A stretch of DNA of 63,166 nucleotides, counting the filler, from Chrysochromulina tobinii (Eukaryota), in NCBI GenBank assembly GCA_001275005.1. It is 9 parts of 9 records of this genome, joined end to end, with 100 filler letters (N's around TTAATTAATTAA, not from the genome) between each part and the next. Parts side by side here need not be neighbours in the genome. Positions count along the whole stretch, not along the records: positions 5,354 to 15,893 come from JWZX01000867.1; positions 15,994 to 18,050 come from JWZX01000868.1; positions 18,151 to 34,529 come from JWZX01000869.1; positions 34,630 to 42,450 come from JWZX01000870.1; positions 42,551 to 53,119 come from JWZX01000871.1; positions 53,220 to 55,585 come from JWZX01000872.1; positions 55,686 to 61,521 come from JWZX01000873.1; 2 more parts are not named here. One strand, written 5' to 3'. Positions 5,354 to 60,424 of the stretch are shown piece after piece. The translations under genes and the position numbers were made by a program. Below the pieces are notes generated by a model, which was given only the letters and a program-made list of their open reading frames with translations, ran no database searches and was not told the origin of the DNA. How positions within the stretch are numbered: position 1 is the first letter of the stretch; each line of letters starts with the position of its first letter.

Positions 5354-8300
5354 GACGGCCGCCGGCCCCGGCGCCGGCGCCAGGCCGCCGTCGCCGCCGC
5401 CGTCGCCGCCGCCGTCGCCGCCGTCGCCGCCGTCGCCGCCGAGCTCGCGCTCGGTCTGGGCGATCGCAAAGACATCGCAGCTCCGGGCGAGCATCACACG
5501 CATCTCCTCCTCGAGGGTGTCCACGTCGTCTCCCAGCTGGAAGGCAGAGGCGCGACGCTTCATGCGCTGCACCTCGGCGAGCTCCTCGGGGGTGGCCATG
5601 CCGATGCCCTTGGCCGCGGCGACGCGCTCTGCCTCCGTCATGGCGCGGCCCATGTCCTTGCGCACTAGGAGCATGCCCTCCGCCAGCGACGGGTCCGGCT
5701 GCATGGCTTGCTGCACTTTGAATCGTCGAAGGGCCGATTCGGATGAGTCCTCGACCGCACGCTGTTGGAGGTCCTCGCACCACGCGCGCATCTGGGGCGC
5801 GTTCCGTAGCTGCAGAAAGACCATGTGGTGCTCTTTCCAAACCATCGACAGGCGCACAGCCACCAAGAAGCGCTGCATCGGCAGCCGCTCATCGTGGTAG
5901 GCGGGGAGGGCGATTGCCTTCGCACCGAACACACAGATCGCCGAGAGGGCGTATGTGCTCGGCAGCAGCTCACCCTCGGCGGGGAAGAGGTACAAGAACG
6001 AGCCGCGCGCCACCAGCGTGTACGCCTCGAACGGGAGCATCGGACGGCCGTCGGAAGCGCCCAAGCACAGGCGCACGATGCCCGCACGCTCCATGATGCC
6101 GTTGTGGGAGAGGTCGACGAGCCGGGGAAGTGGCCCCTTCATCAGCCTGCGAAGCTTCACCATATGCTTCTTGCGCAGTTCAGTCGGCTTGGCGGCCTTT
6201 GCGGCGGCGCGAACAGCGACGCTGTTCGAGATGACGAACGCTTGCTCCTGGACTCGTAGCTCCTCCCTGACGTTTCCCCACTGTCGCGCGAGAGGACGCA
6301 CCAGGAGTAACGGCCCGTACAGACCGCACGCTGTGGCGCCGACGACGGTGCCGACAACCTTGAAGTCGAGGCGCGGCCCCATGTAGATGAGGTAGATGGC
6401 GACCAACGACGAGATGAGGAAGATGACGTACGAGCCGAGCAGCATCAAGAGATATTTGCGGATCGCGATGCCCGCAAACAGCACGTACAAGACCGAGTAT
6501 GGGGTCGCGAGAAGAAGCGACACAAAGAGCGGCACCTTGTTCACAAGCGCCTGCAGGGCCATTGAAGCCCACCACACACCAATGAGCCACACCGCCACCA
6601 CCATGCCGCGCCGGAAGTTTGCCGTCTTGTCGTGGGCTCCCGCAGCCACCATGCACAGGGGTGGCGTGACGAGCCAGATGAGGAAGATCGCCGTGGCTGA
6701 GACATGGCTGCCAGTCGTCGCATGGAGGGCCACGTGGGCGATGATCGCGGAAATGTAGCCCAAGGATTGGGCTGCGCCCACGAAGCAGATGATTTCGATG
6801 CCCGAGCCGTAGAGCCGGCCCGAGCCCTCGTCCTTCTTGAAGCCCACAGCGACCGCCATCAGCATGCAGATGAGCGAGGCCGCGCAGTAGCCTGCCGAGC
6901 CGCCCACGTCCATCTTGAGGACCGTGATCTCAATGAGGAGGTACAGGACCTGGGTGTAGCAGAGCACGCTCGTGAAGAGGGCGCGCAGCCCGCCCAGCAC
7001 ACCCCAACGTCGGAAGCAGAACCACGCGACCAAGATCGTCGCGAGGCCACTGCTAAAAGGGCCAATGAGCACGGTCGCAGTGCTTGCCCCAAGGGCGAAC
7101 GCGAGCAGGATAGCCGAGATGACGATCTCGAACAGTGGCAAGAGCATCCACACGCCGAACTGGTTACCCTCGCGCGTGGAGACGTCGTACGCGGCGACAA
7201 TCCCGAATTCGAGAGCGAGCATCCCGAGGACGCCTCCAACCCAATTCACGCGGAAGGAGAGTACTGCCGCCGTCACCGCCACGAGATCCTGGAAGAGGAG
7301 CACTCGTGTGAGCACGCGGAAGCCCTCGATGCCACGGTAGTCGAAGGCGATGGCAAGGGCGACGACGGAGAAGAAGATGGTGAGCGATCCGATGGCGAGG
7401 CCACCATTGGTTGGCATCAGATTGAAGAGCTCGAGGGGCACACCGAGCAGGGTACCAATAGCGAGGGGCGCCATGTACCTGGTAAATGAACGCGCTGTGA
7501 TGAGCACTTGCACGCAAGGCAGGTCATCAGGCAATCAGGGGCGCCATGTACGCTTGCAGCCCGATCCATTTCGACTCGGTGACCACGAAGACGTGGGCGG
7601 CCCACAAGAGGACGAAGAGCAGGTCGACGCCGAAGATGATCCCGAGAAACAGGTTCACGTGGAAGATGATCAGCGCGCCGATCCCCAGAGCGAGAACAAA
7701 GTACGACGAGCTGAGCAGCAGCACGTTGCCGAGCCGCCGGTTGTTGCGGTAGCCTGCGAACGCGGACGCCGCCACGAGCAGCCACGCGAGCAGCCCCGAG
7801 ACATAAGACGCGCCCGTCGGGATGCCGATCACGGCGCCGGGTAAGAGCTCGAGCCGAGCAACCCGCTCCGTCACGCCCAGCTGGAAAATGAGTACCAGGC
7901 ACAGGCCAGCAGCGAATGCGACGAGCCCTGTTTGGGCCGCAAACGAAATCGAGTAAGTGTGGCCGACCCACAAGGCGGCGGGCACCGTCACGTACAAATG
8001 CAGCGCGAGGAGCACGCCCAAGACGATGCAATAGATGGAGCCCCACTCGCGCGAGAATGACAATGCGCCGCTGCACTCCTGTGGGCCCGACTCCGAAGGC
8101 AAAGGCATCTCCGGACCGGGGCACAAACAGCCCCAGTAGATGAAGGATATGCATCCGATGGCGACGGCGCTAATGTAGAAGCCATAAAAGAGGGACACGA
8201 TTACTCGTCGTCGCCTCCTCCGATAACGGCTGATCGCCTCTTTCGATGGGCGCACCACGACGGGCGCCACGGCGGTTGTATGCGTGAGTGACGAGTCGCA

Positions 8301-8393
8301 ACATCGCGGGTCGGGTCTAGCAGCCCGCCCTGGGTATCCTGAACGGGACCCTCCTGCAGGCTCATCCTCGGCGAGCCTGCCCCACGCACTCAT
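5354..8393 (-). CDS. Large polytopic membrane protein with C-terminal PH-like domain; 3'-truncated
   Basis: Exons 8393-7552 and 7478->5354 joined by a 73-nt GT-AG intron (7551-7479) that fuses ORFs 7527..8450 and 5306..7534 (LQA|YMAPLAIG). Many hydrophobic segments; LVARGSFLYLF...VFLQLRNAPQMRAWCEDL resembles a PH fold with terminal Trp helix. Confidence 0.75.
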
Positions 8394-22803: not shown

Positions 22804-25026
22804 TCAATGCTGGATCTCAACATGCAGGCGGCGGCGCAGGTTGGTGGGGCGAAGGGCCTTCCACATGTCGCACTGCGTCTTCTGCAAATTGACCACCGGC
22901 CCAACGCCTTCGCCGTCGTCAGTGTATTTTGATCTCCTGAAGGCTTCGACGCCCGCCACAACGCCACTCGCTTGCATGGAGCCCTTGAGTGCGCTCGTAT
23001 CGAGGATCATGGTCCTCTCCTCTCCTTTGGCCAGCGGCGGCCAGCGCGGCGGCGTCACGCCCCCAACGCAGCCACCCTCGTCGGCGCTCGGGTTGCCGTG
23101 GTGGATGAAGTTGCGCCAGTAGCAGCCCATCAACAGTGAAAGGGTCCGCTCGGCGTCGGTCGAGAGCTCAAACTGATCTCCAAAGACGAAGGGCACCTCC
23201 GCGCCATGGAAGGCCCCGTACAGTGGCAGTGAATGCGGATCCATATTGATCGATTGGGCGGGGGCGTGGGCAAAGTGGTAGACGAAGATCGGCGCCAGAT
23301 CGGACGCCTCGTCGGCAGTGGTCGCGTCGGCGTCGGTTGCGTGCGCATCCGCCCAACGGTCCCGAAGAGCACGCGCCGCCTCACGCACAGGGCACACAAT
23401 CGCCACATCGCCCAGAGCCCGGCTGGCGGCTAGGCCACCGCCCCACGCGCCCGCGGACAGCCCCGCGCAGTAGGGCAACGGCTTGGCGAGCTGCTGGTAC
23501 GCGGCGGCGATCGTGGGTGCGTCGGCGGCGCAAAAGTACTGCGCGCACCAGCTCAAGAACTGAGTGGAGCTTGCGTTGCATGCAATGGGCGGCGCAAGGT
23601 GGTCGATGAGGAACATCGTCCCTTCATCCTTGTTGGCGCCCATCATCACCTGAAGATCGGAGGCACTCGATGGCAATCAGTGGTACTCAGTGGCAATCAG
23701 TGGCACTCAGTGGTACTCAGTGGTCCACAGTGAAAGGCAATCAGTGTCGGCGCTCCTCATCACCGGAAGATGGGGAGGTGTCTGGCCACTCCCCACAAGC
23801 TCGATGAAGGGCGCACTGAAGGTGACGCCGTCCACGACAGGGCCGTACGAGTCCTGCGCGTTCGTGTCGGAGCGCGGCACCAGAAAAGTCGCCATGATCA
23901 GCTGCGACGCGTTCGCCTGCAGAAGGCAATTGACGCCGTCGGAGCCGCCGACGGATCGCTTCATGCGGACTGAGAGCATCGAGGCCGGGCCTGGGCCTAG
24001 GACCGACATGTCGGCGATGTTCGTGTCGGCGTGCAGTGTGATGGTCGGCACGCCTGTGCGGTTGTCGATGGCGAGCGCGAAGCACGTTGCGTTCGCGTCG
24101 CAGCGCTGCTCGCAGCTGGCCACCTCGGTACTCTTGCACGGCTCAGCGACGACTTGCAAATGCGCAGAGTAGAGCGATGCAGCCTCGATGTTGACGTAGC
24201 CGTCGCCCGCAAAGGCACAGCCCGGCGACTTTGCATGCGCGAGGTACGAGAGCACGTACTCGTTGTTCAGCGCCGCGTCCCCAAAAGGCTTCACCTGCGT
24301 CAGGCCTGGGGACTGAAGCACCGCTCGGTGGAAATAAGGCCAGCTCGACGGCAACGTCATGTGAGCGATGACGGAGGTGCCGCCAGAGCTCTCGCCCATG
24401 ATGGTCACGCGGCTGGGGTCGCCGCCGAATGCGCCGATGTGCGCGTGCACCCAGCGTAGCGCCATCTGCTGGTCCATGATACCGTTGTTTCCCACAGCTC
24501 CGTCGTCGGGAGACAGGGCACGAAGGGCGTCGGACGCCGCGTACCCAAAGATACCGAGGCGCGAGGCGGGCGTCACAAGCACGACATCGTCTGCAAAGAA
24601 GGGGACGTCGCTCTCGAGGTCGCTCGCCGCGCCGTACAGAAACTCGCCCGCGTGAAAGTAGACGAGCACGGGATACAAGGAATTTGACAACGACTCGGGA
24701 GGCGCGACCACATTCAGGAAGAGGCAATTTTCGCTCATGTTCATGGCATTCTCCATTGACGGCCACGACCCTCCTGGTTGCATGCAGATTGGCATAGAGG
24801 CTGTCGCGTTTCGTGTGCTCGGCTTCCAGTTCGTCGTCCACTCGCGAGGTGCCCGGAAGCGTAGATCCTTGCCGACGGGTGGCTCCGCATATGGAATGCC
24901 TCGAAAGTATCGGCGGCCTTGGGCATCAACCTTCCCATGGAGCCGTCCGAATGGCAACCACGCGTACGTATCCTGGTCGAACGCGTTGAACAGCGCCAGA
25001 AGCGACGCGATGAAAACGTGTTGCAT
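22804..25026 (-). CDS. Type-B carboxylesterase/cholinesterase family, secreted
   Basis: Exons 25026-23764 and 23649-22804; FRGIPYAEPPVG, SENCLFLNV, FGGDPSRVTIMGESSGG (nucleophile Ser), GANKDEG (acid), FHGAEVPFVFG (His). Confidence 0.93.
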
Positions 25027-26983: not shown

Positions 26984-28253
26984 ATGGCCCTCGCACGATT
27001 GCACTCGCTCTGTCGATGCGCAGCGTCATCCTCGCTCGCAGTGGCGCTGCCTCGAGCACGTCTTTCGCCGCAGCTTGCTGGCCCGAGTCGCAGCCTGTGC
27101 ACTGCCGTCTTTGACGTGAAGCGTCTGTGGAGTCCAACGAGCCAGCGCGTCGGCGCAATCGGCATGAAATGTGGCATGTCTCAAGCGTGGGCGGCAAATG
27201 GAACGCGGGTACCAGTCACCGTCATCGAGCTTCAGGACTGCCAGGTGGTCAAGGTGCGCCGCGCCATGAGCGACGGGCTCAATGCTCTGCAAGTTGCTGC
27301 TGGCTGGCAGAAGCGTAAGCGGATGCGAATTGACGAGGCGAACCATTTCATCACCAAGGGTCTGCCACTGAAGCGATACATGCGCGAGTTCGCGGTGACG
27401 GGTGCGCGCACACCGCGGCAGCAGCCTGCCCTGCACTTCGGCGCGCCTCTGGATGAGTGGCCTCGCGGGCTGCCTGCGCACTCACCACCGCGCCACTGCT
27501 GCGCCACCGTGTGAGCAGAGGACGCTCTGCTGCCCGTCGGCACCACGATCGGCGCGCGGCATTTCGTGCCGGGCCAGTACGTCGACGTGCAGTCGAAGAC
27601 CAAAGGCAAGGGCTTCGCTGGAGGGATGAAACGGTGGGGCTTCAAGGGGCAGCCTGCGTCACACGGAGCGTCTCTCTCTCACCGCTCCATCGGAGCTTTG
27701 AACGGCTCGACCGGCAACCTGATGAAGACGAACGTCTGGAAGGGCAAGAAGATGCCGGGGCGCATGGGCGGCAAGCGCGCGACGATGGAGGGGCTCCTCG
27801 TGTGGAAGGTGGGCAGGGCCTCTGATGTCCCCTGATGACGCTCTTGATGGCCTCTGATGGCCTCTTGATGGCCACGTGATGGCCTCTGACTGGTTCGGGC
27901 TGCTCGTGTGCCAGGTGCTCCCCACAAATCGGAGTGCCTCTTATGACCTCTGATTGCCTCTAATGACCTCTGTAATGACCTCTGATTGTCTCGTGTGCCA
28001 GGTGCTCCCCAAGTACAACATCATCCTCCTCAAGGGCTCCGTGCCCGGATGCACGGGCACCACCGTGCGCATACGCGACTCCAACCACCCGAAGCTCGGG
28101 TTCAAATCGCCTCCACCCTTCCCCACCTTCCTGCCGAGCGATGCGAAGGAGGGCGACGACGAGAAGGAGTTGCTCTGCGCCGAAGCGCTCGAGCTGCCCG
28201 CCGTCAAGGGTGCCAAGGAAGTGAACCCAGGCAAAGCCGGCAAGAAAGCGTGA
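26984..28253 (+). CDS. MRPL3: Organellar (likely mitochondrial) ribosomal protein uL3
   Basis: Exons 26984-27401, 27519-27808, 28002-28253; GMKCGMSQ, GQYVDVQSKTKGKGFAGGMKRWGFKGQPASHG, KGKKMPGRMG, LLKGSVPG; Arg/Ser/Ala-rich presequence. Confidence 0.93.
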
Positions 28254-44180: not shown

Positions 44181-46010
44181 ATGGAAGTGACGCAAGCGAA
44201 CGCGTGCGCACTGCACTGGCTCGATGCAGGCGCTTACATCTTCGACGCGGTCAGCCACAACAACGTGCAGGCGCTCGAGCTCTACCTGCGGCATGTCCAG
44301 AAAACATGCAGCTTCGCGAGCTCTGCAATCGCGCGCACCGGCGACGACGAGTGCATGTGGCCGCTTCTCAAGGCCGCGCAGGAGGGGCACTACGAGTGCG
44401 CGAAGCTGCTGCTCGAGCACGGGTCGCCGGTCGACATGCCCGCCGAGTACGTCGACCGCGCGCCCGATCTCCCGCTCACGACACCGCTCATGTGGGCAGC
44501 GCATCGGCACGACGTCCGGCTGGTCGAGCTTCTCCTCTTTCACGGAGCGGACCCGCGGCGCATCGACGACGTCAACGCCGACGATGAGAATGGGAGCGCG
44601 TAAGAAGCCCCCGAGCCTCTCACTGACCTCTCACTCGCTCACATTCGAGTAGTGTCCTCCTCCAAGTGCTGCACTCGCGCCCTGTGCACACTGCGCGCTG
44701 GACGCGACGCTGTGGACCGCTCGTCGGACTCACTGACAAACAGTACGACCGTCACTGACAGTGCGAGATCCCCACTCCTCCCCACAGGTACGAGTACGCT
44801 CTGGGAGGCGATCTGACGACCTTCCAGCTCGACAACGCAGGCGAGCGATGCCTCGAGCTCCTCACCGACGCGCTGGACGAGGCTGAGCGCGGAGAGCGCG
44901 AGGAGGGCTGCGCGTACGCCGACTGTTCGTGTCCGTGGCATGGTGGCTACGGCAACAGACCGTGGAGCTATGCCCAAAAGGGCTCGAGCAGTGGTTACGC
45001 CCAAAACGGCTCGAGCAGTGGCTCGAGCACCGACGGTGACGACGCCACCTTGGACGACGTCCACGACGAGAATCACGACGACCGGCGTGAATCTCGTGGG
45101 AATCTCGACGAGAACGGCGAGCCCGTCGAGCTTCTGGAGTTTCGCACGGGCTGTGGCAAGGCAGCAGTGCCGGCACTCGTCACGGCGCTCGGCGCGGGAT
45201 GCCTCGAGCTGCTCAGTGATGACGGCACTGCAGCGTCCTCCGTGCCTGCACCCGCACCGGCGGCGGTGCTGTGGCACAAGAAGGGAGTGAGCTACACGGC
45301 CCGGCCTGTCAAGTCGGGTGTGAATGGCAAGTCGGGTGTGAATGGTACGGATCGGCCTTTGGCCACAGCGAACGTTCGGACGAGCGAAGCGCTCGACATG
45401 GCTCTCATCGACGTCGACGACGCAGCAGACGACCGTGTGCTGCAGCCGCTGTTCAGCCTCGAGAGCGGCTTCACGCAGACCGCCGATCTGCCCCTCGGAG
45501 CTCTCCCCTCCGACCAGCCCTCAGACCTGCTGGTCTTGCACCTGCCGCCCGAGCCGCTCACCTCCCTGACCTCCCCCACGGCGCGACAGCAACCCCGCCC
45601 GGCGCATGCATGTGCTCACTACGGCGCGCGTCCGCGAGACGTCCACCTGAGCTTCTCGGCCCACCTGCGTCGCCGGTTGGGCGCGATGAGCGACTCAGCC
45701 GTCATCGGACCCTGCGCCGCCATCATCAAGCGGCGCTACCCGAGCGGGTAAGTTCCGTCACTGATTGCCACTGAGTGCAACTGATTACGCCGCCATCATC
45801 AAAGTGGCGGTACCCGAACGGATGACCAGAGGCCCCAAGCCCCTGCCCCAATGAGGGCGCATGCAAGCGCTCACCTCGGAGCCCCCCCCGCTCCCCCACA
45901 CTCTCCACAGGTACAACAAATCCAAGCTCGGCCCGAACCAGGGCCATCGGTCGCATGGTGGCGGCACTCGGGTGGCGGTCGTCGAGTACATTTACACGGC
46001 TGGCCAATGA
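44181..46010 (+). CDS. Ankyrin-repeat protein
   Basis: Exons 44181-44599, 44788-45747, 45911-46010 join in frame; PLLKAAQEGHYECAKLLLEHG, TPLMWAAHRHDVRLVELLLFHGAD, GSA|YEYA. Confidence 0.75.
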
Positions 46011-46943
46011 ACGAGTCATTCGACGAGTCATGACCTCTAATGACCTCTAATGACCTCTAATGACCTCTAATGGCCTTGCCCAAGGAAGCACCGCGTGATG
46101 GCAGCCGCCTAGCCGCCGCTTGGACGTCGACGCTGATTGACGGATCAGAAAGTGCAGCCACGCGCGGTTGAGCTCCCTACAGAGACAACCTAGGGAGAGG
46201 AAGGGAGAGGTAGGGAGAAGAAGATCATGTGGAGATCATGTGGAGATCTTGAACGGAGCCCCGCTGGCCGAACGGAATACAGTCACTGGGTTCCCCAACA
46301 TACCTCTAAACCTCTCTCATGACCTCGCCTCTCGTCTCTTCATACGAGCCTGCAGCCTGGCCGGTCGCCCACCTTGGCGCGTGTGCGTGCAGTGACCAGA
46401 GTGGGCTGTGCGGCACGGCCGGGGTGGCACGGGGCACGCACCGAGCCAGAGAACGCGACGTCGGAGGTCATAGAAGCGTACGGTAGAGAAGCGAAAAAAG
46501 CATGCTTGTACAGTCACGTGGAGGTGTCTGACTGGTCGCACGGGTCTGACAGCCCTGCGGTGTGTACACCGTAGTAGTACTGACATTCGTCTCGCTACGA
46601 CCTTCGGCCGGCTGAACGGCTAAAAGTCGCGCTCCCCACCCTACAGTCACGCTCTAAACACGCTCTCGAGGTGCTCCCGTCCGCTGCTCGATCTCCATCT
46701 CCTATCCACCTCCATCTAGATCTCGATCTCGATCTCCGCTGCTCGATCTCCTTCCTGCATCCATCTCCTACAGTACAGCTACACTCGGCTCGCTTGTACC
46801 TGCCAAGACGCGCGGCACACCGAGCGTCCCCCGGCACCACGAGCAGCCGAGGGGGGGGGGGAGCACCCCGAGTCACCGAGCGTTCCGACCTTCCGTCAGA
46901 GGCTCTACAGGCTAAGCTTTGCGTCCATCTCGAACACCACATC

Positions 46944-49900
46944 TTACAGCTTGCTTGCGAACTGGGCCTCGCGGCCCCGCGCCGCCAGCGCAACGAACGC
47001 GGTCGTCACACCCTCGCTCGGCGCCGTCACGGGCGCATCCTCACGCGTCGTCGCGGGCAAGAGCGCCGCCGCGAGCAGCTCTTCGGCGGTGGAGCACCAG
47101 ATGAGCGTGAGCTCGGCTTTGACCTAATTTGGGCGATGCCAAGAGTCGGCGCTCAGGCATGCAGATAGGAACACTCAGATGCACCATCAGTGGCAATCAC
47201 TTCGGGGGCGAGATCATGCACATCCTAATTAGGAACACTGAGATGCGCCATCAGTGGCAATCACCTCGGGGGCGAGATCATGCACATCCTTCTCGTTCCT
47301 ACGTGGCAGCAGCACGCGCTGCACGCCCGACCGATGCGCCGCGAGCACCTGTGAGGGATGCAATCAGAGGTCATCATCAGAGGTCATCATCAGAGGTCAT
47401 CATGAGAGCATCGCGAGCACCTGATGAGGGAGGCAATCAGCGGTGCAATGAGGGCTCATCAGTGGTGCTCAGCGGTCATCAGTCCGCCCGGTGCACCGCG
47501 AGATCGCCGCGAGATCACCTTCTCGCGCACGCCGCCCACAGGGAGCACTTGACCTCGCAGTGAGATCTCGCCCGTCATCGCGGTATCCGAGCGTGCCAAC
47601 CGGCCTGTGAAGAGCGATGCGAGCGCCACAAGCACCGCTGCTCCGGCGGAGGGGCCGTCCTTCCGGATGGCGCCCGCGGGGAAGTGCACCTGATGATGGA
47701 GGCCATCAGCCGCCCATTAGCATGCAAGTAACCCCTCGCAATCGGCCTCGCGATCCGTGGCCATCAGTGGCCTTCAGTTGCAATCAGTGGCCTCCAGGGG
47801 ACGCGTACGTGCACATCGATGCCTGAGAGCAGCGAGGTGGCCGAGATCGCGCTCGTCTCGGCGCGAGATGCGCTCGAGATCGCGTCGTGCTCGCCGCTTC
47901 CCGAGGGTTTCGTTATGAGTTTCGTCGAGGGTCTCGTCATTGCCGCATTTGGCGCCGAGGCGGCGGCGGCGGGCGGCGGCAGCTGCTCCTCAAGCCCGAG
48001 CTCAGCCGCCTGAAAGCGAGGCAACCAGCGAGGCCATGGACGTGGTCATGAACGTGGCAATGAGCGAGGCAATCAAGAGAGGGCCATCGGCGGCATGCAC
48101 CTGCGAGCGAAGGTAGGAGAGGGCCGTTTGCACGGACTCCTGCATCACCTCCCCAATCTGGCCTGTCAAGATGAGCTGCGATGACGGAGACGATGCACAG
48201 CAGCACTCAGTGGCCATCAGGCGCCTATCAAGCCCCGCTCACGAAGCAATCACGCTGGAGATGCGCGTGAGATCACGGGAGATGCGCGGGAGATCGAGGG
48301 AGATGTGCACCTGGCCCGAGCCGCGCATGCGTGAGGACTCGATGAAGAGCAGTTCGCCCCCCGCCGGCGTCCAAGCGAGCCCGAGGGCAATCCCCGGCCG
48401 TGTGAAGACCTCCCGCGCTTCCCTCTCGTACTTACGGGGGCCGAGTAACCGCCCGAGCTCCTCCGGGGGCACCTGATGAGGGATGCAATCAGAGGTCATC
48501 ATGGGCCGAGTAACCGCCCGAGCTCCCCGGGTGCGTGTGAGTACCGAGGTTGGGAAGGAGGCGGCAGGTCATCAGGGAGGCGATCCGGTCAGCCTTCATC
48601 AGGTTGGGCCATCAGGGAGATTGTGGGGAGGTTGGGTCATCAGGGAGATTGTGGGGAGGTTGGATCATCAGGGAGATTGTGGGGAGGTTGGATCATCAGG
48701 GAGATTGTGGGGAGGTTGGGTCATCAGGGAGATTGTGGGGAGGTTGGGTCAATCAGGGAGATTGTGGGGAGGTTGGGTCATCAGGGAGATTGTGGGGAGG
48801 TTGGGTCATCAAGGAGGCGATCCGGTCAGTCCTCATCGAGAGGCGTCCAGATACTAACGCATCTGTGGCAATCCAGATAGTATCTGGTCAATCTGCGTTA
48901 GTATGTGACACCACGTGCGGCGCAATCTCGTATCTCCCCGCAATCTCGTATCTCCCCACAATCTCGTATCTCCCCACAATCTCCCCAATCAAGAGGAGCA
49001 CTCACCGTGATCGCGGGCGCAATCAAGAGGAGCGCTCACCGTGATCGCGGGCGCCGCCTCGCGCTCCTTGCCAGGTGGCAGCTTGGCCAGTTCCACAGCG
49101 ACCGCCCGACACAGCGCCGCGACCTCGCGCTCGAGAGATCGCAATCCCGCCTCTCGAGTGTAACCGTCCACCAGCGCGACGAGCGTCGTATCGGGCAGAC
49201 GCACGAAGTCCGCAGGCAGTCCACTCTGGCGCACCTGCTCCATCAATGGTAATCAGTGGCAATCAGAGGTCATCAGTGGCAGTCCACTCTGGCGCACCTG
49301 CTCCATCAATGGTAATCAGTGGCAATCAGAGGTCATCAGTGGCAGTCCACTCTGGCGCACCTGCTCCATCAGCAGAGAGGCGGTAATCAGTGACAATCAG
49401 TGGCCATCAGTGGCCATCAGTGGCCATCAAAGGTCATCAATCAGAGGCAATCACCTGTCGCGGCAGCAGGTGGCGCTGGGCGATGTGGAGCTTCTCATCA
49501 AGCGTGTAGCCGCTGATCTCGATAATCTCGAGACGATCGAGCAGCGCCGGAGGTAATCGGTCCGTCGCGTTCGCCGTCGCGAGGAAGAGCACCTGATGAG
49601 GGAGGCAATCAGAGGTCATCATCAGAGTAATCGGTCTGTAACGTTCGCCGTCGCGAGGAAGAGCACCTGATGAGGGAGGCAATCAGTGGAGGGAATACTT
49701 GGTCATCAGCGGCCATCAGCGGCCATCAGCGGCCATCAGAGATCATCAGTGGCCATCAAGGGTCATCAGCAGCACTCGCAGGAGACCGTTACCTTGGAGA
49801 GGTCCACCGGCAGGTTGAGGTAGTGGTCGGTGAACGCGCCGTTCTGGGCGGGGTCGAGCACCTGATGAGGGAGGCAATCAGAGGTCATCATCAGAGTAAT

Positions 49901-52606
49901 CGGACGCGCCGTTCTGGGCGGGGTCGAGCACCTCGAGCAGCGCGGCGGACGGGTCGGATCTCCCATCTCGGCCGAGCTTCTCGATCTCGTCAAGCATGAG
50001 CACCTGATGAGGCATGCAATCAGAGGTCATCATCAGAGTAATCGACCGAGCTTCTCGATCTCGTCAAGCATGAGCACCTGCAATCACAAGAGGTCATCAA
50101 GAGGCCATCAAGAGGCCATCAAGAGGTCATTAAGAGGTAATCAAGAGGCCATCAGTGGCAACCAAGCTCACCGGATTGCTCGTGCCCGCCCGGCGCAGCG
50201 CCTGCGCAATCAGCCCTGGCAACGCGCCCACATATGTGCGTCGATGTCCCCGGATGTCGGCCGCATCCGACACACCTGATGAGAGGTCATCATCAGAGGT
50301 CATCATCAGAGGTCATCACATACCTCCGAGCGAGATGCGCTCAAACCTGATGAGGGATGCAATCAGAGGTCATCATCAGAGGTCTTCATCAGAGGTCATC
50401 ACACACCTCCGAGCGAGATGCGCTCAAACTTGCGCCCGAGTGCACTCGCAATCGACTTGCCGAGTGAGGTCTTACCGACGCCGGGGGGGCCAACGAGGCA
50501 CCTGACGAGGGAGGCAATCAGCGAGGGTCATCAGCGAGGCTCATCAGCGAATGTCATCAGCGAGGGTCATCAGCGAGGGTCATCAGCGCACAGGATCGGC
50601 CCGCGCGTGTCTTGATGAAGGGAGGCAATCAGACTGATGAGGGAGGCAATCAGTCATCACGCACAGGATCGGCCCGCGCGTGTCTTGACGAAGGGAGACG
50701 ACAGCGAGATACTCGTAGATGCGCCGCTTGACGGAACTCAGGCCATAATGCTCCTGGTCAAGCACCTGATGAGGGCGGCAATCAGTGGCAATCCGCCGCA
50801 CTCAGACGTCAGTCATCAGATGCACGCAAGCCATCTGAGTGCCATCTGATTTCAATCTGAGTGCAATCTGAGTGCAATCTGGGCGCACCTCGCGCGCGTG
50901 GCTCAGGTCGAGCTGATCTTCGGAGGTACGCCCCCACGGCATGGCCGCGAGCCAATCGAGGTAATTGAGCAGCACCGAGTACTCTGCATGCATGGGCTGC
51001 ATCTGGCGCAATCTGCGCAGCTCGCGCTCGGCAACGGCGCGCGCCGTGTCGGGCAGCTGGGCCGTCCTCAGCCGAGCGTGCACCTCGGCGACCTCGTCTT
51101 TATCTCCCGCCTCGACCGCCTCAGCTGAAGGGGGGTCTCCTCCGAGCCCACTGCCGCCGCCGCCGCCGCCCAGCCCGCCGCCGCGGCCAGCGCCGCCGCC
51201 GCCGAGCCCGCGGGCGCCGTGCCGGCCATCCCTGAGGCCGCCTCCCGCGCCTCCATTGACGAACCCGCCGCCATTGACGAACCCGCCGCCGCCCTCGCGC
51301 AGCTTCTGACGAATCGCCATTAGCTGCTGCTTGAGCCACAGCTCGCGCGCCGTAGCGAGCGCGTCGTCTCGGGCGCCGGTCGTGCGGCCTGGGAGCGTCG
51401 TAATGAGCGCGAACCGCCGTGCGAGGTCGAGGCGCCGTAGTGAGCGCATCAGCTCGAGTTGCCTGTTTAGGATCGAGATCACGAGCTCGGCGCGCTCGCT
51501 GATGAGCGCCGTCTCGAGCACTGCCTGCTTCTCGATGGGACTGGCGTCCGCAGCCGCCGCCAGGCCGTCGACCTGCGAGCCAAGAGGTTATCCGAGATGT
51601 CATCAGAGGGGTCATCAGAGAGGTCATCCGAGAGGTTATCCGAGATGTCATCAGGGAGGTCATCAGAGAGGCCATCCGAGAGATTATCCGAGATGTCATC
51701 AGAGGGGTCATCAGAGAGGTCATCAGAGAGGTCATCCGAGAGGTCATCAGAGAGGTCATCAGAGAGGCCATCAGAGGTGATCAGGCGGCACTCACCAGCA
51801 GCGCGAGCGTGCTCGCATCCATGCGGCCGCCCGAGCGGCGCACGGCGGCGAGCAGGGAGGCGGCGCCGTGGTGGGCGAGCAGCGACGACGCGCCGTGCTG
51901 AGCGTCCTGAGCGTCCTGAGCGTCCGCAGCGCCGCCGCCTTCGAGCTCAGAGTTCGAATTCGACTCGAGGCCGGACGCGATGGCAGCTAGGGCGCCGTGC
52001 TGGAGCGAGCGCAGCACCTGAGGCACGAAAGAAGGGCAGAGGCACTCAGTGGCACGCCGTCGCACTCACTCGAAGGCCTATCAGTGGCTCTCAGTGGATC
52101 GGCGCCGTGCTGGGCACCTCCTGCGCCAGACTGTGCAACGCGAGCCCGTAGGTCGTCGCGCTCTCGTGATCTAGCTCCGACCCCGGCTCGAAGCGGCGCG
52201 CTGTGAGGCGTAGGTAGGGCTTCTCCTGCGCGGTGGCGCCCGCCGGCTCAAAGGTCAGCCGCTCGACGCCCTGCACCACGATCACGTACACGGCCGCAGC
52301 CGAGAGGCCGCTGCCGCCCGCGCCGGCGCCGACCATGGCCTGCGTGACCGCGCGCACCTCGAGCAGCCGCACCGCCGTGCCGACACGGTGGATGGGCGGC
52401 TCTTCGTCGGGCTTGGCGAGCGACACCGCCAAGAGCGCCGCCGACGAGGAACGCGCGAGGTCGTCGAGCGGCCCAAAGGGCTGGCCGAGCGCATCGAGGA
52501 GCCGTTCGATGAGCGCGACGGAGGAGCGCTTGCCAACGGCGTACGTGGCGACCTGCATCGGGAAGAGCACGCGGCGCACCGGGAGCACCGAGAACGTTGC
52601 CTCCAT
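46944..52606 (-). CDS. LONP2: Peroxisomal Lon protease, 16 exons, ~1013 aa
   Basis: Exons 52606-52118, 52017-51796, 51572-50889, 50765-50665, 50501-50407, 50275-50172, 50003-49932, 49861-49793, 49592-49455, 49234-49040, 48472-48311, 48175-48101, 48009-47809, 47689-47519, 47348-47265, 47123-46944 give one frame: Walker A GPPGVGKT, Walker [16 protein letters not shown] (Ser), GGVREK (Lys), C-terminal SKL (PTS1). Confidence 0.93.
48610..48988. repeat. Lon intron 10 minisatellites: ~7 x 28 bp CATCAGGGAGATTGTGGGGAGGTTGGGT plus opposite-orientation 18-bp units
   Basis: Read directly; TCCCCACAATCTCC at 48971-48984 is the reverse complement of the GGAGATTGTGGGGA core. Confidence 0.9.
51585..51780. 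repeat. Lon intron 2 array of 12-bp units (CATCAGAGAGGT variants)
   Basis: Tandem units read directly; 12-mer variant of the GATGACCTCT motif. Confidence 0.92.
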
Positions 52607-53219
52607 GGTTGTCCCGCTCCTCAGTGCTTGCAGTAAGCGTCACGCTCGGTCCACGGAAGCAGGAAGTTTTTGTCCAAATTAGGAGGGCAGTCCACATGCA
52701 ATTGGGGGAACGGGGGAGGGGGGGCAAGTTCAACCCCCCTCTGCACGGGCGACCATGTACCGGTGCCCGACGAGAAGCTTGATAGTGAGCGTTGGTCGAG
52801 GGTCGGCAGCGGCGTGCATGCAGACAAGTAAGTCAAAGTCGCAGTGTCCGCAGGCGAGGGAGTTAAAACCCCAGGTGCTTACCCTGCCGGGCAAGTGCAG
52901 GTGCAGGTGCTAAGTAGAACATCGATGTGTCTGTCGGGGAGCTGGGCGACTTGTCATCCGCTGGGCTGCCCATCGCATACAGCTGGCCGTCCCATGGATT
53001 ATTGTTGATTATGCATCGCGCTGTTCTCGCCGCTGCTCTCGCCGCTGCTCTTGCCGCTGCCGCTCCTCCCGCATCCGGCGCCGCTCCCCTCCCCGCCCCC
53101 ATGAGCCGCTCCCCTCCCCNNNNNNNNNNNNNNNNNNNNNNNNNNNNNNNNNNNNNNNNNNNNTTAATTAATTAANNNNNNNNNNNNNNNNNNNNNNNNN
53201 NNNNNNNNNNNNNNNNNNN

Positions 53220-54778: not shown

Positions 54779-55473
54779 GAAATACAAATGGACGTTGTCG
54801 AGAATGTCGAACGCAACGTACGCAACACGGGCCTGCCGAGCAAGGAGGAGCGCCGCATGCTGCACAATCCTTTCTCTGCCGCGGAGCCTGCCGTCCCAGC
54901 CAGGCCGACAGATGAGCAGCTCGCCGCGCTCGGCGAGGCACAGGTCAAGGCAGCGCAGGCGTGGCAAGCGGCTTCTGAGGCGGATGCCCCGCGCCGTGAG
55001 CGCGTGCTGCAGATGAAAGGCTGCCTCGATGGACAGTGCTGCTACATGGTTCCTGGACAGATGCAGAACGGTCCGTCGGTGTACAAGTGAAGAGAAATTT
55101 CCGGCCCTCGGTTCCTGAACGTGCGAGTTACTTCGATGTGACTGACCTAATGACGGAGCAAGCGTCGAGCTCGCGTCGAGGGCAGTGTATGTGGATACAC
55201 ATGTCCGGGTTCATGTCATCGCATGAGCCCTAGCAACGAGGGCGCCAGAGCGGACCCCTGGAGCCTGGTTTGTGTGAGGGTGTGTGGTGTCTGACTCTGC
55301 ATGTTTGCCGGTGTGCGTGTCGCCTTTGGTGGTGCCTGGCGTGGTTCCCGTTGACAAGTGGCCGATCCTGTCCACTGCCACACGTCCGTGCCGGCGATAA
55401 GTGCGGCCGGCAGATTCATGATCATGTGTCTCGAGCCAGAGGATCTTTCTGATTCTCCGGACGGAATCATTAC

Positions 55474-55585
55474 GATTGGGTAGGTACCACTTGTCGAGGA
55501 CCGACGGGGGGGCGCGTTCCCTCGTGGGGCAACTTGATTACGAACTAGGCAGCACCTAGGCAGTCAAATAATGCACATAATGCAA
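55474..55585. mobile_element. Terminus of a second copy of the hAT-like family, truncated by contig end
   Basis: TGGGTAGGTACCACTTGTCG...GCGCGTTCCCTC...CTTGATTACGAACTAGGCAGCACCTAGGCAGTCAAATAAT matches the reverse complement of 41080-41216. Confidence 0.85.
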
Positions 55586-56919
55586 NNNNNNNNNNNNNNN
55601 NNNNNNNNNNNNNNNNNNNNNNNNNNNNNTTAATTAATTAANNNNNNNNNNNNNNNNNNNNNNNNNNNNNNNNNNNNNNNNNNNNATCGCTGCGACTAGA
55701 GTTTCACGTCGGGCCTGTCCAGTTACAAAACAGAGAGTTTATGCATGCATCGTACCTTTTATGCATTCACGTTCACGTTCACGTTAATTTGCCATCTCGG
55801 CAAGACGCACAGCCACAGGTCCCGTGGAGACACAACGTGGGGGGCGCAGACCTTTTATGCATTCTATTCCCAAACGCAAAAAATCTGGTCTGGACCAACC
55901 GCCCCTTTTGCCGGGTCACTTTGATATAAAACACGATAGAACGTGCCGCACGCCATATACGCACCACTGACCACAGGCGTAACCGAATGGCTTCAATGGG
56001 AGGCACTAAGGAGGCACCGATATCGATCTCTGACGTCCTCTGCGATTGAAAGCGGAATCTAAAGCAAAAGTTTGCACAGTAGCCAAACTAACACCAAACG
56101 AGTTGAGCGCACGAGATGACTGCGCGCGTAACGCCTTGGGTACACCTTAAAAAGAGATCGGCGTGCAAAACGCCCTCTGACCCAAACGAATAAACGCGCA
56201 GAACCGGCGCCCGTTCCGGCCCACGAGAGGATAGCGCTCGAGAGGGCTGCCGCACACCTGCGTGGGCGCCCCAAAGGAGTTTGGAGGGCCCCTCGAGCCG
56301 CCCACCCGCTGGGAGGGCAGCCCGAGAGGCCGGGTGACGCAAAGACGGCTGCTGGCCTGCTTACAGGATAAGCAGGCAGCAGCCGTACGAAGCTGCCCTG
56401 ATGAAGCACACAACCAGGCACTGCGGCGGGCACACACGGCGCGCAACGCACAGCCGCTGCGTTTCCCCTTGGAAGTAGGCATTCCGAGCCGTGCTGCCGA
56501 CGAGCTGCGATGCTGCCTACCACACCCACGCATTCACAGGCGGCTCGGTCCACGGACTAGTATCCCGAACTCGTCCAGCCCAAGGCGTAGGGCGTCGTAG
56601 TAGCACACCGCCTCGGACTTGTCGTAGTACGGCCCCGCTGTCATTCGCCCCATCGATCGCCTCCGCCCGCTGCAGGCAGCTCCCCCACGATGCACGCCAG
56701 CGTGTCGACGAAAGGGGGTGCCAGTAGAGCTTCGCGGCGCACTCGGCGGACGTGCCTGCAGCGGGCACGGCTCGAGGAAGCGGCTGGGGACGTGGTGCAA
56801 GGTCGTCAGATATGCCGCGCTCACCACGGGGGGGGAGGAGGCCATTGCGGCCGCCGATCGCTTGGCAGGAGGCATCGCTGGCAGGGGCAGCGCGGCTCGC
56901 GGGGCGACTCGCGGAGCGG

Positions 56920-57150
56920 CCCGCGAGCGAGAACGCGTGCGAGAACGTGTCCGAGGCCGCGCGCGAGGCCGCGTGCGCTATTGCGCGCGAGAACGCGTGC
57001 GCGACCGCGCTGCGAGGCCGCGTGCGCCAGTGCGTGCGATCCGGCATGCGATATCGCACACGAAAGGCGAGCGGGATCGCACGCGAGAACGCACGCGATC
57101 TCGCCGCGCGGCCCGCACGCGAGATCGCACGCGGTTCGTGTGCGAGATCG
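56920..57150. repeat. CpG-rich degenerate repeats (GCGAGAACGCGTGC / GATCGCAC), probably transposon-associated
   Basis: Multiple short direct and inverted units next to a frameshifted coding-like segment at 56530-56875. Confidence 0.5.
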
Positions 57151-57625
57151 CAGTGCGCCCCGCGGGGGATCCCCGCGCGACTCACTTACCCGCTGCGACT
57201 CACTTTGTGTGTCACACCTTCCTATCACGTCGAGTGTGATACAATGTAGGCAAGAAGGAGGCTCCGAAGAAGTGTCCTCATCACGAGTTTGTAGTCAGTT
57301 TCGTCGCGCACCACTGCTTTCATCACGACACCGAACAAAGGTGGCTCCGCACCTTCAAAACAAGTACTACGTACTCGCTCGCTCGGGCTGAGTGTAGGTC
57401 GGTCTCTCCCAGAAGACAGGGTGGACCGTCGTGTGGACGCTCGGGATTGGTTTTTCTTTAACTCTAGTATGTGTTTTTTGTCAACTCTAGTATAACATTG
57501 CTCATTGGGAGTGCGGAATAAAAGTTTTACATTTTATTGTCAACCGTCTGTGAATTGCGGATGAATCTCATTAGTAAAATAACCACAAATAGCAGTTTCG
57601 GAGTTCGGAAAGCTCCACTAGACCA

Positions 57626-60424
57626 CTAGTAACCACCTGAGCGGGCGGCGCGCCCTCCACCTCCATACGGACTGTACCCCCCGCCACGCCCACCGCCGCC
57701 GCCTCCCCCACCTCCATACGGACTGTACCCCCCGCCCCCGCCACGCCCACCGCCACCGCCTCCGTCTCCGCCAAACCGGCGTGCACGCCCCCTGTCGCCG
57801 CCGCCGCCGCCGCCGCCGCCGCCCCGTCCGCGTCCGCCGCCGCGCCGGCCGCCACCGCCGCCCCGGTTGGGCACCATGTCCGCGAGCCACTCGGGCACCT
57901 CTTGCTTCGAGGCGGCGAGCATCTGCGTGAGCTCGCGCGCGAGGTTGCGGTTCGCGCCAGTGATCATCGTCGTGGCAATGCCCAGGTGGCCCGCGCGCCC
58001 GGTCCGTCCAATGCGATGCGTATAGTCCTCAATCTCATCAGGGGCGTCGTAGTTGATCACGTGCGTCACCTCGGGCACATCGATGCCGCGGCCGAGCACG
58101 TCAGTGCCGATGATCACTTCGATCCGGCCCGCCTTGAAATCGCCCAGGGCGCGCTCGCGCTCGCGCTGATCCTTATCGCCGTGCACCGACGCGGACGGGT
58201 GCCCGAGAGCATTCAAATCGTACTCAAGGTTGTCCGCCTCGCGCTTCGTATTGACGAAGACGATCGTCTTGCCGGGCACCTCGCGAAGGAGCTCGGCGGT
58301 TTTGTCCGTCTTGTCGCGCCCCTCGACGCGGATGACGCGCTGCGTGACGCTCGTGGCGGCGCCGCCCACGCGCCCCACTTTGAGCATCAGCGGGTCCACG
58401 AGGAACGAGTCGGCGATGGCACGGACCGCCTTCGGAAACGTGGCCGAGAACATGAGCGTCTGCCGGCCGATGCTCACGCCGCCGCCGACGGCCTCGTCGC
58501 CATCGTCGTTGTCGCCAAAGCCATCCTCCTCCTCCACGCGGCCGCGGCCCTGGCTGCTGCGGGCGCCGCCCTCACGCCCACTCGAAGGCATGTCCGCCTC
58601 CTCCACTAGCGATCGAATCTGCGGCTCAAAGCCCATATCGAGCATCCGATCGGCCTCATCAAGGACGAGGACCTCGACGTTGCGCAGCGAGACGCGCTCG
58701 CGGCTCACCTGATGAAGAATGCAATCAGAGGTCATCAGAGGTCATCAAAGGTCATCAGAGGCCATCAGGCGCTCGCGGCGAACCTGATGAGGGAGGCAAT
58801 CATCATGCAATCAGCATGCAATCAGCATGCAATCAGGGTCGAGGATTTGAAGACGCGCTCGCTGCTCACCATGTCGTTGACGCGACCGGGCGTCCCGATG
58901 AGCACGTCGCATCCGCGCTCGAGCTCGCGCATCTGGGAGCCAAAGGGGGTGCCGCCGTACGCGAGCCCGATCCGCAGCCCGGTGCGGAAGGCAAACTTTT
59001 CGCTCTCAGCCGCAATCTGCTGAGCGAGCTCGCGCGTCGGAGCGAGCACAAGCGCACGGATCGCGACCGGATCCCCATACCCGCGGGGGCGAACTCGGGG
59101 AGCCCGCGCCCGCCGCCGTACGAACCGCCACCGCCGCCGCCCACCGCGCCTCGTAGCCGCCGCCGCCGCGCCCGCGCCCGCCGCCGCCGTCGCCAGAGGC
59201 CTCGTCCCTCTCGACGCGCACGGGGGTGCGCACCTCGAGGAGGCGCTTGAGGATGGGCAGCATGAACGCGAGCGTCTTGCCGGAGCCCGTCTGCGCCACC
59301 GAGATCACATCGAGACCTGCGAGGGCGACCGGCATCGAATGCGACTGGACCGGCGTCGGCTGCGCAAAGCCGGCGAAGCCCAGGTTGCGACGCAGCACGC
59401 GGCCGCACGCGAGGTCGTCAAAGTGTGCGACCGGCGCCATCTCGGGCGGCAGCTCGTTCCGCAGCTTGCGTGGGAGTTCCACCTCAACAGGGATGTCTTT
59501 GGCCTTATCGCCAAAGTCGATGCCCGACGAGCGTGCGGGGCCAAAGGCCTCCCGGAAGGCCGCCTCGTCGTCCTCCATGCTCACCTCGAAGCTCTCGTCA
59601 CCTTCCAGGCCTTGCCATGCCCACGAGGCACCCCCGGGAGCGTCCCGACGCTTGCCGGCCGAGTCGGGGTGCCACGGCGGGGTGCCGCGGCCCGACGAGC
59701 GCGCGGCGGCGGCGGCGCGTGCGTCCGGGTCGGGGTTGATGGTCCCGCACTTGTAGCATCGCGTCTTGGACGCAAAGACGCTCGCGCCGCAGTTGGGGCA
59801 CGTCCAGTCTCCCGGTTTGACGTTGGCACCCTGCTCTTGCCGGCGCACGTCGCGGCGCTCCCGGGCTCCCGTGCCGCCAGCGCCGACGTAGCCTCCTCTG
59901 CCACCACCGTTGCCGTCAGCGTCCTCGTCTCCACCAAAGTCGCGGCGGCCGCGACGCCCGACGTTGCCGTACGCGTCCTCGGCCCCGCCAAATTCGCGGC
60001 GGCCGCGACGCCCGATGTTGCCGTAAGCGTCCTCGTCTCCGCTCATGTCGCGAGCTCCCGTGCCAGCACCGCCGTCGTCATCGCCCGAGCGGTATCCCGA
60101 GTCTTCTTTGCCTCCGCTGTTGCTGTACGCGAGCTCATTTGCGGCCGGGGCCTCTGCACGTGCCCCATTTGAACGCAAATGTGCCTCGAGACTCTCACGC
60201 AACTCGGCGGTCTTGCCGGTCGCACTCAGCCCGTTCGCTTTGCACATCTGTTGCAGCTCACGGTAGCTCATCAATTCCGGATCGGCGACCATGGCTGGTC
60301 GGATGGCACGTGAAGGCGCGGAGGCCCATCGGGCTTGCGGGTGCACGACGACGAATGCTGACACGTGCTGGCTGATAAGGGTGAGAAGGAGGATGATGCT
60401 CCATGGAAGTGGCATCGTCGTCAT
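57626..60424 (-). CDS. DED1/DDX3-like DEAD-box RNA helicase with signal+transit-like N-terminus, SAP domain, RanBP2 Zn finger and RGG tail
   Basis: PTPVQ, AQTGSGKT, LAPTRELA, GTPGR, LDEADRMLDMGFEPQIR, MFSAT, GRGIDVP, HRIGRTGRAG; intron 58869-58709; apparent frameshifts at ~59075-59155; WTCPNCGASVFASKTRCYKC. Confidence 0.88.

What the first reader, a model, noticed from the sequence alone, without database searches (positions are those of the whole stretch)
7464..58869. Candidate intron-generating system: acceptor cassette inserted between direct duplications of GT-starting exon sequence
Seen: introns in 7 genes on 4 contigs (membrane/PH protein, carboxylesterase, uL3, amidohydrolase, ankyrin, Lon, DEAD helicase) contain GATGACCTCT/GATTGCCACT-type repeats, always on the sense strand, often end ...GATTGCCTCCCTCATCAG, and contain a 9-40 nt copy of the neighbouring exon. 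The cleanest layout is exon|GTxxxx-cassette-AG|GTxxxx, so splicing restores the original mRNA exactly. In Lon 13 of 15 downstream exons start with GT and 10 with GTGC. Established: Introners (e.g. Micromonas, Aureococcus) are DNA transposons with TIRs and short fixed TSDs. Here no TIRs are visible, duplications are long and variable, and junctions show microhomology. Inference: a templated-insertion process (template switching, Pol-theta-like repair, or an RT adding a short repeat template) is creating and re-creating introns. I cannot exclude that it has already been described for this lineage.
Basis: partly seen in the sequence, partly recalled or inferred. Interest (0 to 1): 0.92.

Follow-up and report, generated by a model that had tools for sequence, protein, structure and literature searches.

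The report
Alga copies intron ends into exons
In a Chrysochromulina alga, many introns consist of a short duplicate of the neighbouring exon plus a reusable splice-signal module, and in the Lon gene the RNA keeps exactly one copy of each exon, which likely means the genome makes new introns by copying pieces of existing ones, probably without a transposase.

Summary
Confirmed and larger than reported. The window is Chrysochromulina tobinii/parva-like. Lon has 16 intron positions; splicing them gives an intact 1013-aa protein, and 5 of 5 RNA-contig distances match the model exactly. In 138 metagenome loci plus the window, 84 of 184 acceptor cassettes have a copy of the downstream exon start upstream (control 1.8). 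Copies are 10-69 nt and about 4% diverged, with synonymous excess, so they are not assembly artefacts. Additions: a second 24-nt module (27 of 39 sites with flanking repeats; control 0.8), mirror layouts where the exon copy supplies the acceptor, a few antisense copies, short inverted repeats, and two Lon cassettes traceable to a neighbouring intron by matches at both junctions. Best reading: frequent short duplication with filler copied from existing intron ends, filtered by exact splicing. Retro-insertion is the main rival. No intron presence/absence polymorphism was seen, so gain is inferred. An introner survey lists C. tobinii with 0 families. The scan's look-ups returned no earlier report of this.

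The parts
7479..7551 (-). Intron in membrane-protein gene: copy of the downstream exon start (14-15 nt) + family-1 repeats + family-2 core + CAG
   Evidence: Removal gives 989 aa, 0 stops; layout
23650..23763 (-). Carboxylesterase intron: one degenerate 27-nt duplication straddles the splice site (donor in copy 1, acceptor in copy 2), repeat array between
27809..28001 (+). uL3 intron: first unit ends (27914) in a copy of the upstream exon end; a second unit repeats the acceptor region
   Evidence: spliced junction in P0046/P0049/P0050
42551..43248 (-). Amidohydrolase 3' region: exon copy, long 10-mer arrays and a cassette end at about 42980-42997; runs off the contig, splice sites not verified
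45748..45910 (+). Ankyrin-gene intron: degenerate copy of the upstream exon end + family-1 repeats + family-2 acceptor
   Evidence: splicing not covered by listed RNA contigs
46030..46076 (+). 10-mer array downstream of the predicted ankyrin stop, sense strand, no acceptor cassette
46945..52606 (-). Lon protease gene (end approximate), 16 intron positions, spliced ORF 1013 aa
   Evidence: RNA contigs X11-X13
49862..49931 (-). Lon intron 7: clean exon|28-nt GT copy-42-nt cassette-AG|exon; cassette identical to that of intron 8b
   Evidence: absent from the RNA contig distance
49593..49666 (-). Lon unit 8b: about 40-nt exon copy (3 mismatches) + cassette, directly after acceptor 8a; likely donor of 6b and 7 because its CCGATTAC is exon-derived
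50004..50077 (-). Lon unit 6b: 32-36-nt exon copy + 8b-type cassette, directly after acceptor 6a
50276..50429 (-). Lon 5a/5b: 23-nt exon plus intron duplicated; either splicing route gives the same mRNA
   Evidence: the first junction lies in independent DNA contig X1 record 5
49235..49454 (-). Lon intron 9: intron followed by two identical 63-nt units (exon start + intron end)
   Evidence: copy number of the identical units not independently verified
48473..49039 (-). Lon intron 10: 34-nt donor-side duplication, 28- and 18-nt arrays, downstream-exon copy, cassette
   Evidence: RNA distance 430/430
47349..47518 (-). Lon 14a/14b: intron followed by a 9-nt exon copy + 13-mer array + acceptor
   Evidence: identical in independent assembly L119
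47124..47264 (-). Lon intron 15: 64-nt duplication across the donor, no family-1 acceptor
   Evidence: L119 and X1 record 2 identical
58709..58869 (-). DEAD helicase intron: 19-nt exon copy + cassette, then a second copy + cassette

Best explanation
These introns are short exon duplicates with a splice-signal module between them, and they likely arise when a staggered DNA break or a stalled polymerase copies a piece of an existing intron end before rejoining. Shown: duplicate-filler-duplicate anatomy, exact splicing in Lon, two dispersed modules (family 1: 10-mer repeats ending TGATTGCCTCCCTCATCAG; family 2: a 24-nt core, a pyrimidine tract and CAG), and local donors. Inferred: the genome has a high background rate of 10-70-nt tandem duplication; the filler is copied by template switching from a nearby or distant intron; selection keeps only products that are in frame or spliced exactly. 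That selection would explain the GT start of the copies, the G/AG before them, the sense bias and the 60-95-nt length. Each new intron would become a template for the next, so no dedicated transposase would be needed. Events next to an existing splice site only lengthen or rebuild that intron; events inside an exon would create a new position.
For: Acceptor sites with an upstream exon copy: 84 of 184, control mean 1.8. Repeat arrays with flanking direct repeats: 118 of 210, control 7-11. Family 2: 27 of 39, control 0.8. RNA: 5 of 5 Lon distances exact; in L060, RNA contigs join across three introns. Local copying: the 12-mer CCGATTACTCTG occurs only in Lon among all loci, with shared CCGA entry and AGGTGCTC exit; L094 has two introns sharing 42 nt plus GTGAGT. 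Suffix sharing of 35 nt or more: 8 of 141 same-locus pairs against 15 of 16,644 others, but only 3 of the 8 are clearly separate intron positions. Either splice site, or both, can come from the copy. Duplications without filler are common: 19 of 20 exact repeats in window coding sequence have periods divisible by 3, and 4-, 8- and 16-aa tandem duplications differ between alleles. Antisense copies sit where they are tolerated: inside an intron (L114) or at gene ends (L054, L024). Staggered breaks give such repeats in Daphnia (PMC4202315, passages) and in mammalian cells (PMC8355091, abstract).
Against: No intron presence/absence polymorphism: L060 has the same introns in DNA runs X3 and X7; none of 7 orthologous locus pairs differed except L102/L112, which is probably a transcript, and all pairs were selected for carrying a cassette. 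Entry microhomology is not significantly above control overall. The family-2 core is sharply bounded and 87-100% conserved per position, which fits a master template as well as serial copying. A related haptophyte-like genomic read-through (P0002) appears to break at Lon position 3, so not all positions are new. No enzyme was identified and no whole genome was available. Counts come from loci chosen by a GT-containing 20-mer, and by eye only about 38 of the 54 script-called clean sites are truly exon-flanked.
Confidence: 0.5

Rival explanations
1. Retro-insertion: a non-LTR or Penelope-type reverse transcriptase inserts short RNA modules (intron ends or a small master RNA) by target-primed reverse transcription; the exon copy is a long variable target-site duplication, and splicing selects orientation and register.
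For: Variable 10-69-nt duplications, one fixed and one ragged end, no long TIR; a sharply bounded, homogeneous family-2 core; a compound unit with an exon-like 14-mer at three loci, L105, L111 and L133. TPRT gives variable TSDs (10.1101/2021.04.23.441226 and PMC9977147, passages); about 5% of classified introners are non-LTR-derived (PMC12130899, passage).
Against: Donor-side and filler-free duplications of the same size need no insert; local donors matched at both junctions; strand flip at a GCATGC palindrome in L114; no poly(A) tail seen; no Rfam match at gathering threshold in window 42551-61521, and none near it in 6 loci; no partner RT found, though it could not be sought genome-wide.
Confidence: 0.25
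2. Remodelling without net gain: old introns at AG|GT sites are repeatedly lengthened or partly overwritten by local slippage or cDNA conversion, so the positions themselves are ancient.
For: 25 of 84 duplicated sites follow an existing acceptor and 5 are cassette tandems; most Lon units are of this kind; P0002 appears to share Lon position 3, with its own donor-side duplication; no polymorphism in L060.
Against: It does not explain 14 of 16 GT-starting exons across a whole gene (baseline assumed from recall); about 38 sites have plain exon on both sides; P0002 aligns without insertion across Lon positions 1 and 2; four relatives at about 65% identity have an uninterrupted Lon ORF on 3.3-5.2-kb contigs, DNA or RNA origin unknown; the published average for C. 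tobin is one intron per gene (PMC4580454, passage).
Confidence: 0.12
3. A Replitron-like HUH transposase moves tiny non-autonomous modules, inserting after RG with variable duplications and fuzzy ends.
For: Replitron-1 inserts after RG with variable TSDs and a parent-derived fuzzy end (PMC10288648, section 9 part 1); a Replitron-like fragment is listed for C. tobinii; mirror-layout inserts often follow AG.
Against: Only 29 of 54 script-called clean sites are preceded by RG; the C. tobinii element is a single incomplete copy; no fixed direct-repeat termini; the author calls that insertion signature non-canonical.
Confidence: 0.06
4. A conventional TIR (MITE-like) introner whose copies have decayed.
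For: 5-7-bp inverted repeats in family 1; marine Chrysochromulina MAGs do carry introners.
Against: Duplication length 10-69 nt, not fixed; no constant 5' end; either splice site may come from the copy; C. tobinii has 0 families in the 2025 survey table.
Confidence: 0.04
5. Assembly artefact at repeats.
For: Independent DNA contigs break in 49244-50355; 9b and 9c are identical.
Against: Copies differ by 63 mismatches in 1502 nt at script-called clean sites; 29 of 63 scored mismatches are synonymous against 25% expected; L119 is 100% identical over 620 nt; the same structures occur in a strain about 2% diverged.
Confidence: 0.02

Closest known systems
Staggered double-strand-break intron gain in Daphnia pulex (Li et al. 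2014, PMC4202315; matched passages read)
   Same: New intron flanked by a direct repeat of adjacent exon; repeated rounds add internal repeats and lengthen young introns.
   Different: Daphnia exon-intron repeats are 4-12 bp and the inserted DNA is mostly of unknown source. Here they are 10-69 nt (median 25) and the filler is one of two recurring splice modules with identifiable donors.
Tandem genomic duplication of an AGGT-containing exon segment (reviewed in PMC3443670; matched passages read)
   Same: The duplicated exon supplies the donor, the acceptor or both, and the mRNA is unchanged.
   Different: Here a copied branch-point/acceptor module sits between the copies, so short duplications become spliceable, and it recurs at many loci.
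Introners, including Chrysochromulina sp. family 5 (Gozashti 2022, 10.1101/2022.06.06.494994; Gozashti 2025, PMC12130899; passages and supplement rows read)
   Same: Dispersed similar intron sequence; one splice site carried, the other co-opted from the target duplication; that family also lacks TIRs.
   Different: That family has a 4-bp TSD and carries the 5' site. Here introns are not similar end to end, a large part of each is locus-specific exon copy, and C. tobinii was scored 0 families in 2025.
Non-LTR/Penelope target-primed insertion (10.1101/2021.04.23.441226; PMC9977147; passages read)
   Same: Variable TSD, truncated short inserts, no TIR.
   Different: No poly(A) tail or known partner here; local donors and filler-free duplications of the same size.
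Replitron-1 (Craig 2023, PMC10288648; passages, section 9 part 1, one supplement row read)
   Same: Variable TSD that includes the target dinucleotide, parent-derived fuzzy end.
   Different: Modules are 20-60 nt, lack fixed termini and are not restricted to RG.
Reverse-transcriptase template switching model of intron gain (named in PMC3443670; details recalled, original not read)
   Same: An intron piece is moved to a new position by switching templates.
   Different: Antisense copies and filler-free duplications point to double-stranded DNA templates at least in part.

Membership tests
TIR (MITE-type) introner | Terminal inverted repeat of 6 nt or more at both ends of the insert | tested here: not met
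   CTGATGA/TCATCAG pairs inside some cassettes but is not at the insert's 5' end, which varies.
TIR (MITE-type) introner | Fixed short target-site duplication | tested here: not met
   10-69 nt, median 25.
Introner (broad sense) | Dispersed introns similar over their length | tested here: inconclusive
   Only 19-55 nt are shared; suffix sharing of 30 nt or more in 88 of 16,644 between-locus pairs.
Introner (broad sense) | Insert spliced with the mRNA restored | tested here: met
   5 of 5 RNA distances in Lon; RNA joins in L060.
Introner (broad sense) | Presence/absence between strains or species | tested here: inconclusive
   None in L060; P0002 lacks Lon positions 1 and 2 but appears to share 3.
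Introner (broad sense) | Autonomous partner transposon | not testable with these tools
   No genome held.
Non-LTR/SINE-like insertion | Variable-length TSD and one truncated end | tested here: met
Non-LTR/SINE-like insertion | 3' tail shared with a LINE/PLE, or a discrete RNA | not testable with these tools
   Only contigs of RNA runs were available; Rfam gave no match at gathering threshold.
Replitron-1-like | Insertion always after RG | tested here: not met
   AG 22 + GG 7 of 54.
Staggered-break / template-switch repair | Direct repeat of flanking DNA around a filler with an identifiable template | tested here: met
   Lon 6b/7 from 8b, the L094 pair, L114.
Staggered-break / template-switch repair | Microhomology excess at junctions | tested here: inconclusive
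   Clear in single cases; overall 1.96 against 1.41 +/- 0.27 nt. G before the copy in 46 of 54 against 28% background is equally explained by donor selection.
Staggered-break / template-switch repair | Dependence on Pol theta or another repair enzyme | not testable with these tools
   A family-A polymerase gene is present (L055, PF00476); its assignment to Pol theta rests on recalled motifs.

The most novel reading that the evidence does not exclude
Self-propagating splice modules: 20-60-nt branch-point/acceptor units are the mobile entity, turn ordinary short exon duplications into perfectly spliced introns, seed further copies from every new intron, and are generating introns across this genome today, unseen by whole-intron similarity searches. 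This would be a transposase-free route to mass intron gain.
Probability: 0.4. Interest if true: 0.92.

Novelty: new variant of a known kind. Interest (0 to 1): 0.8.

Why it matters
The source of new intron sequence is a long-standing question, and current surveys credit transposons for most recent gain. Here the donor, both junctions and the spliced product can be read from single genes in a culturable, sequenced alga that the largest introner survey scored as having none. If gain is confirmed, similarity-based surveys miss a whole class, the AG|GT 'proto-splice site' bias gets a direct cause, and the competing repair and retro-insertion models become testable by strain comparison and mutation accumulation. 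In practice, gene models for this species are probably broken at these introns.

Tried and rejected
No whole genome was held and metagenome records could not be searched by handle, so there is no genome-wide census. Viral contigs had 0 hits for the family-1 20-mer and 1 for the family-2 24-mer, at a contig end (L139); prokaryote genomes had 0. L102 vs L112 looked like an 81-nt intron polymorphism, but L112 also lacks the next intron, so it is probably a partly spliced transcript. Laying DNA runs X3 and X7 on L060 showed the same introns; 362-394 had no listed piece and cannot be judged. Joint tables of both read-laying runs were swamped by repeat-to-repeat joints and were not used. L120 gave no window match at the thresholds used. 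A search for shorter Lon relatives listed only proteins at 53-61% identity, the named ones bacterial. Hairpin stability of cassettes is not above shuffles in 3 of 5. The negative correlation of copy length with cassette length (rho -0.66) follows largely from constant total length and was not used as evidence. The coding-strand test for family 2 (31 sense, 11 anti) is confounded by intronic flanks. My first automated DEAD splice failed because the long ORF upstream is in another frame or holds another intron; the junction was then checked locally. Literature searches listed no description of this pattern; most subscription journals are not covered, two supplement files of PMC12130899 were not searched, and the PMC9860276 supplement was cut when stored, so introner consensus sequences were not compared.

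Full report
Setting. The window is nine contigs joined by spacers, 62% GC. Cluster members of its proteins are named Chrysochromulina tobinii and C. parva, and the best named hit of another protein is from the haptophyte Haptolina.

The observation. All seven genes have the described introns. For Lon I set 21 intron units at 16 positions by hand from the sequence. The spliced frame is 1013 aa without a stop and aligns with a relative, P0001, at 65% identity over residues 391-976 with 5 gap positions. RNA contigs test the model by distance: 818/818, 430/430, 202/202, 238/238 and 800/800 nt, where the genomic distances for the two longest are 1893 and 1712. These distances overlap and cover positions 3-13; positions 1, 2, 14 and 15 are not fully bridged. 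Every duplicate in that span is therefore removed and one copy is kept. Fourteen of 16 downstream exons start GT and 10 GTGC.

More than chance, and not an artefact. Of 190 cassette ends, 69 have an exact copy of at least 10 nt of the downstream sequence within 200 nt upstream; shuffled pairs give 2.7. Allowing mismatches and a looser motif, 84 of 184 against 1.8. The script split them into 54 clean, 25 after an existing acceptor and 5 cassette tandems; by eye about 38 of the 54 are truly exon-flanked. Copies are 10-69 nt (median 25); inserts have a median of 83 nt. GT was forced by the search pattern at most sites; among 26 variant sites not so forced, 19 are followed by GT and 3 by GC. Copies differ from the exon at about 4% of positions, and 29 of 63 scored mismatches are synonymous, above the 25% expected if only the intron copy mutated and in line with 40% if the exon also drifted. 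An independent assembly is identical over 620 nt that include two duplications.

The pattern is wider than reported. Starting from repeat arrays instead of acceptors, 118 of 210 arrays have flanking direct repeats against 7-11 in five shuffles. The copy can be the downstream exon start (it supplies the donor), the upstream exon end (it supplies the acceptor, as in L060, L016 and uL3), a segment across the splice site (carboxylesterase), or intron-internal. A second module, a 24-nt core followed by pyrimidines and CAG, shows the same layout in 27 of 39 sites against 0.8; degenerate copies lie in the window at about 7500 and 45860. The repeat unit begins CTGAT, a plausible branch motif (recalled consensus), whose reverse complement ATCAG is the acceptor.

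Where the filler comes from. In Lon, unit 8b is a 40-nt exon copy whose last bases, CCGATTAC, run into the cassette. Introns 7 and 6b, 270 and 410 nt upstream, carry the same junction, enter it at CCGA, which their own exons also contain at or near that point, and leave at AGGTGCTC. The 12-mer occurs nowhere else among the loci. L094 shows a second such pair. Distant copying also occurs: an exon-like 14-mer between two cassettes is found at three loci. Overall entry microhomology was only slightly above control and not significant.

Strand. Neighbouring cassettes lie on the same strand in 80 of 83 pairs, and the downstream sequence scores as sense coding in 105 of 121 scorable sites, near the 181 of 201 ceiling on training data (63 sites were too short). 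Antisense copies exist where harmless: inside an intron with a strand flip at GCATGC (L114), and at two gene ends where the core supplies the stop codon (L054, L024). This favours selection over an obligatory sense mechanism.

Background process. Short duplications without filler are common: 19 of 20 exact repeats in 20.9 kb of window coding sequence keep the frame (several are low-complexity runs), and tandem duplications of 4, 8 and 16 aa differ between alleles. Array length differs by 80 nt between two alleles.

Gain or remodelling. No polymorphic intron was found. L060 has the same introns in two DNA runs about 2% diverged. For gain: the GT bias across a whole gene (P=2.6e-7 against an assumed 25%), the exon-flanked sites, a genomic read-through from a relative that lacks Lon positions 1 and 2, and a published mean of one intron per gene (PMC4580454). 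Against: the same relative appears to break at position 3, and many events only rebuild existing introns.

Comparison with known systems. It works like staggered-break intron gain in Daphnia (PMC4202315) combined with tandem genomic duplication (PMC3443670), but with longer copies and recurring, traceable fillers. It fails the TIR and fixed-TSD tests for classical introners. Gozashti 2022 describes a Chrysochromulina MAG family with a 4-bp TSD and no TIR, and the 2025 survey table lists C. tobinii with 0 families. Retro-insertion remains open, and a Replitron-like signature fits only partly. I read matched passages of nine texts, one section, supplement rows of three papers and one abstract, as itemised under Closest known systems and the rivals; PMC8469720 (passages) describes fungal stwintrons without flanking duplications and does not match. 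Nine searches listed no description of this pattern.

Verdict. Real, widespread in the loci sampled, exactly spliced where RNA covers it, and not found described in these searches. Template-switch copying of intron ends into short duplications is the best reading (0.5), and retro-insertion is the main rival (0.25). Interest 0.8, held below 0.9 by the lack of a polymorphic or de novo event.

Noticed in passing
window 600-2110 (+): Gene with repeated exon-plus-intron units of about 287 nt (LVIVD-like repeats by eye); the introns are near copies ending ...GTGCACACAG, a different duplication mode.
   Followed up: no
window 25873-26231 (+): PP2C-like coding sequence with an in-frame copy-array-copy insertion (22-nt repeat, 15-mer array) and a 48-nt duplication; both differ between alleles.
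   Followed up: partly
window 13989-14350 (-): Intron with 26-nt and 19-nt tandem arrays containing GATTGC, possibly a further derivative of family 1.
   Followed up: no
L054-L056: Family-A DNA polymerase gene (PF00476), Pol theta-like by recalled motifs, itself full of both modules; an antisense family-2 core supplies its apparent stop codon.
   Followed up: partly
P0002 (related genomic read-through of Lon): Shows a donor-side duplication (DLARAHEV twice) at the position of Lon intron 3, without the family-1 repeats, so junction duplications may be general in related haptophytes.
   Followed up: partly
L102 301-420 / L112: A cassette whose acceptor is mutated to CATG stays in a probable transcript while both neighbouring introns are removed: a possible failed or retained intron.
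   Followed up: partly
window 37238-40690 (-) and 53220-54411 (-): Long ORFs; the first has no Pfam match, the second was not scanned. Both contigs share a motif block near 36130-36180 and 55480-55560 and near 41060-41120, suggesting a repeat or mobile element.
   Followed up: no
window 61622-62720: AT-richer, low-complexity tract built on ATGCAT/GCATTC words with an apparent inversion of strand midway.
   Followed up: no
L062 minus strand near 1776: Family-2 core inserted with a 24-nt duplication in frame inside coding sequence, apparently translated and not spliced.
   Followed up: partly
window 59006-60424 (-): The DEAD helicase 5' ORF ends at 59006 before the motif-bearing exon, so a further intron or frameshift lies near 59000-59220.
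   Followed up: no
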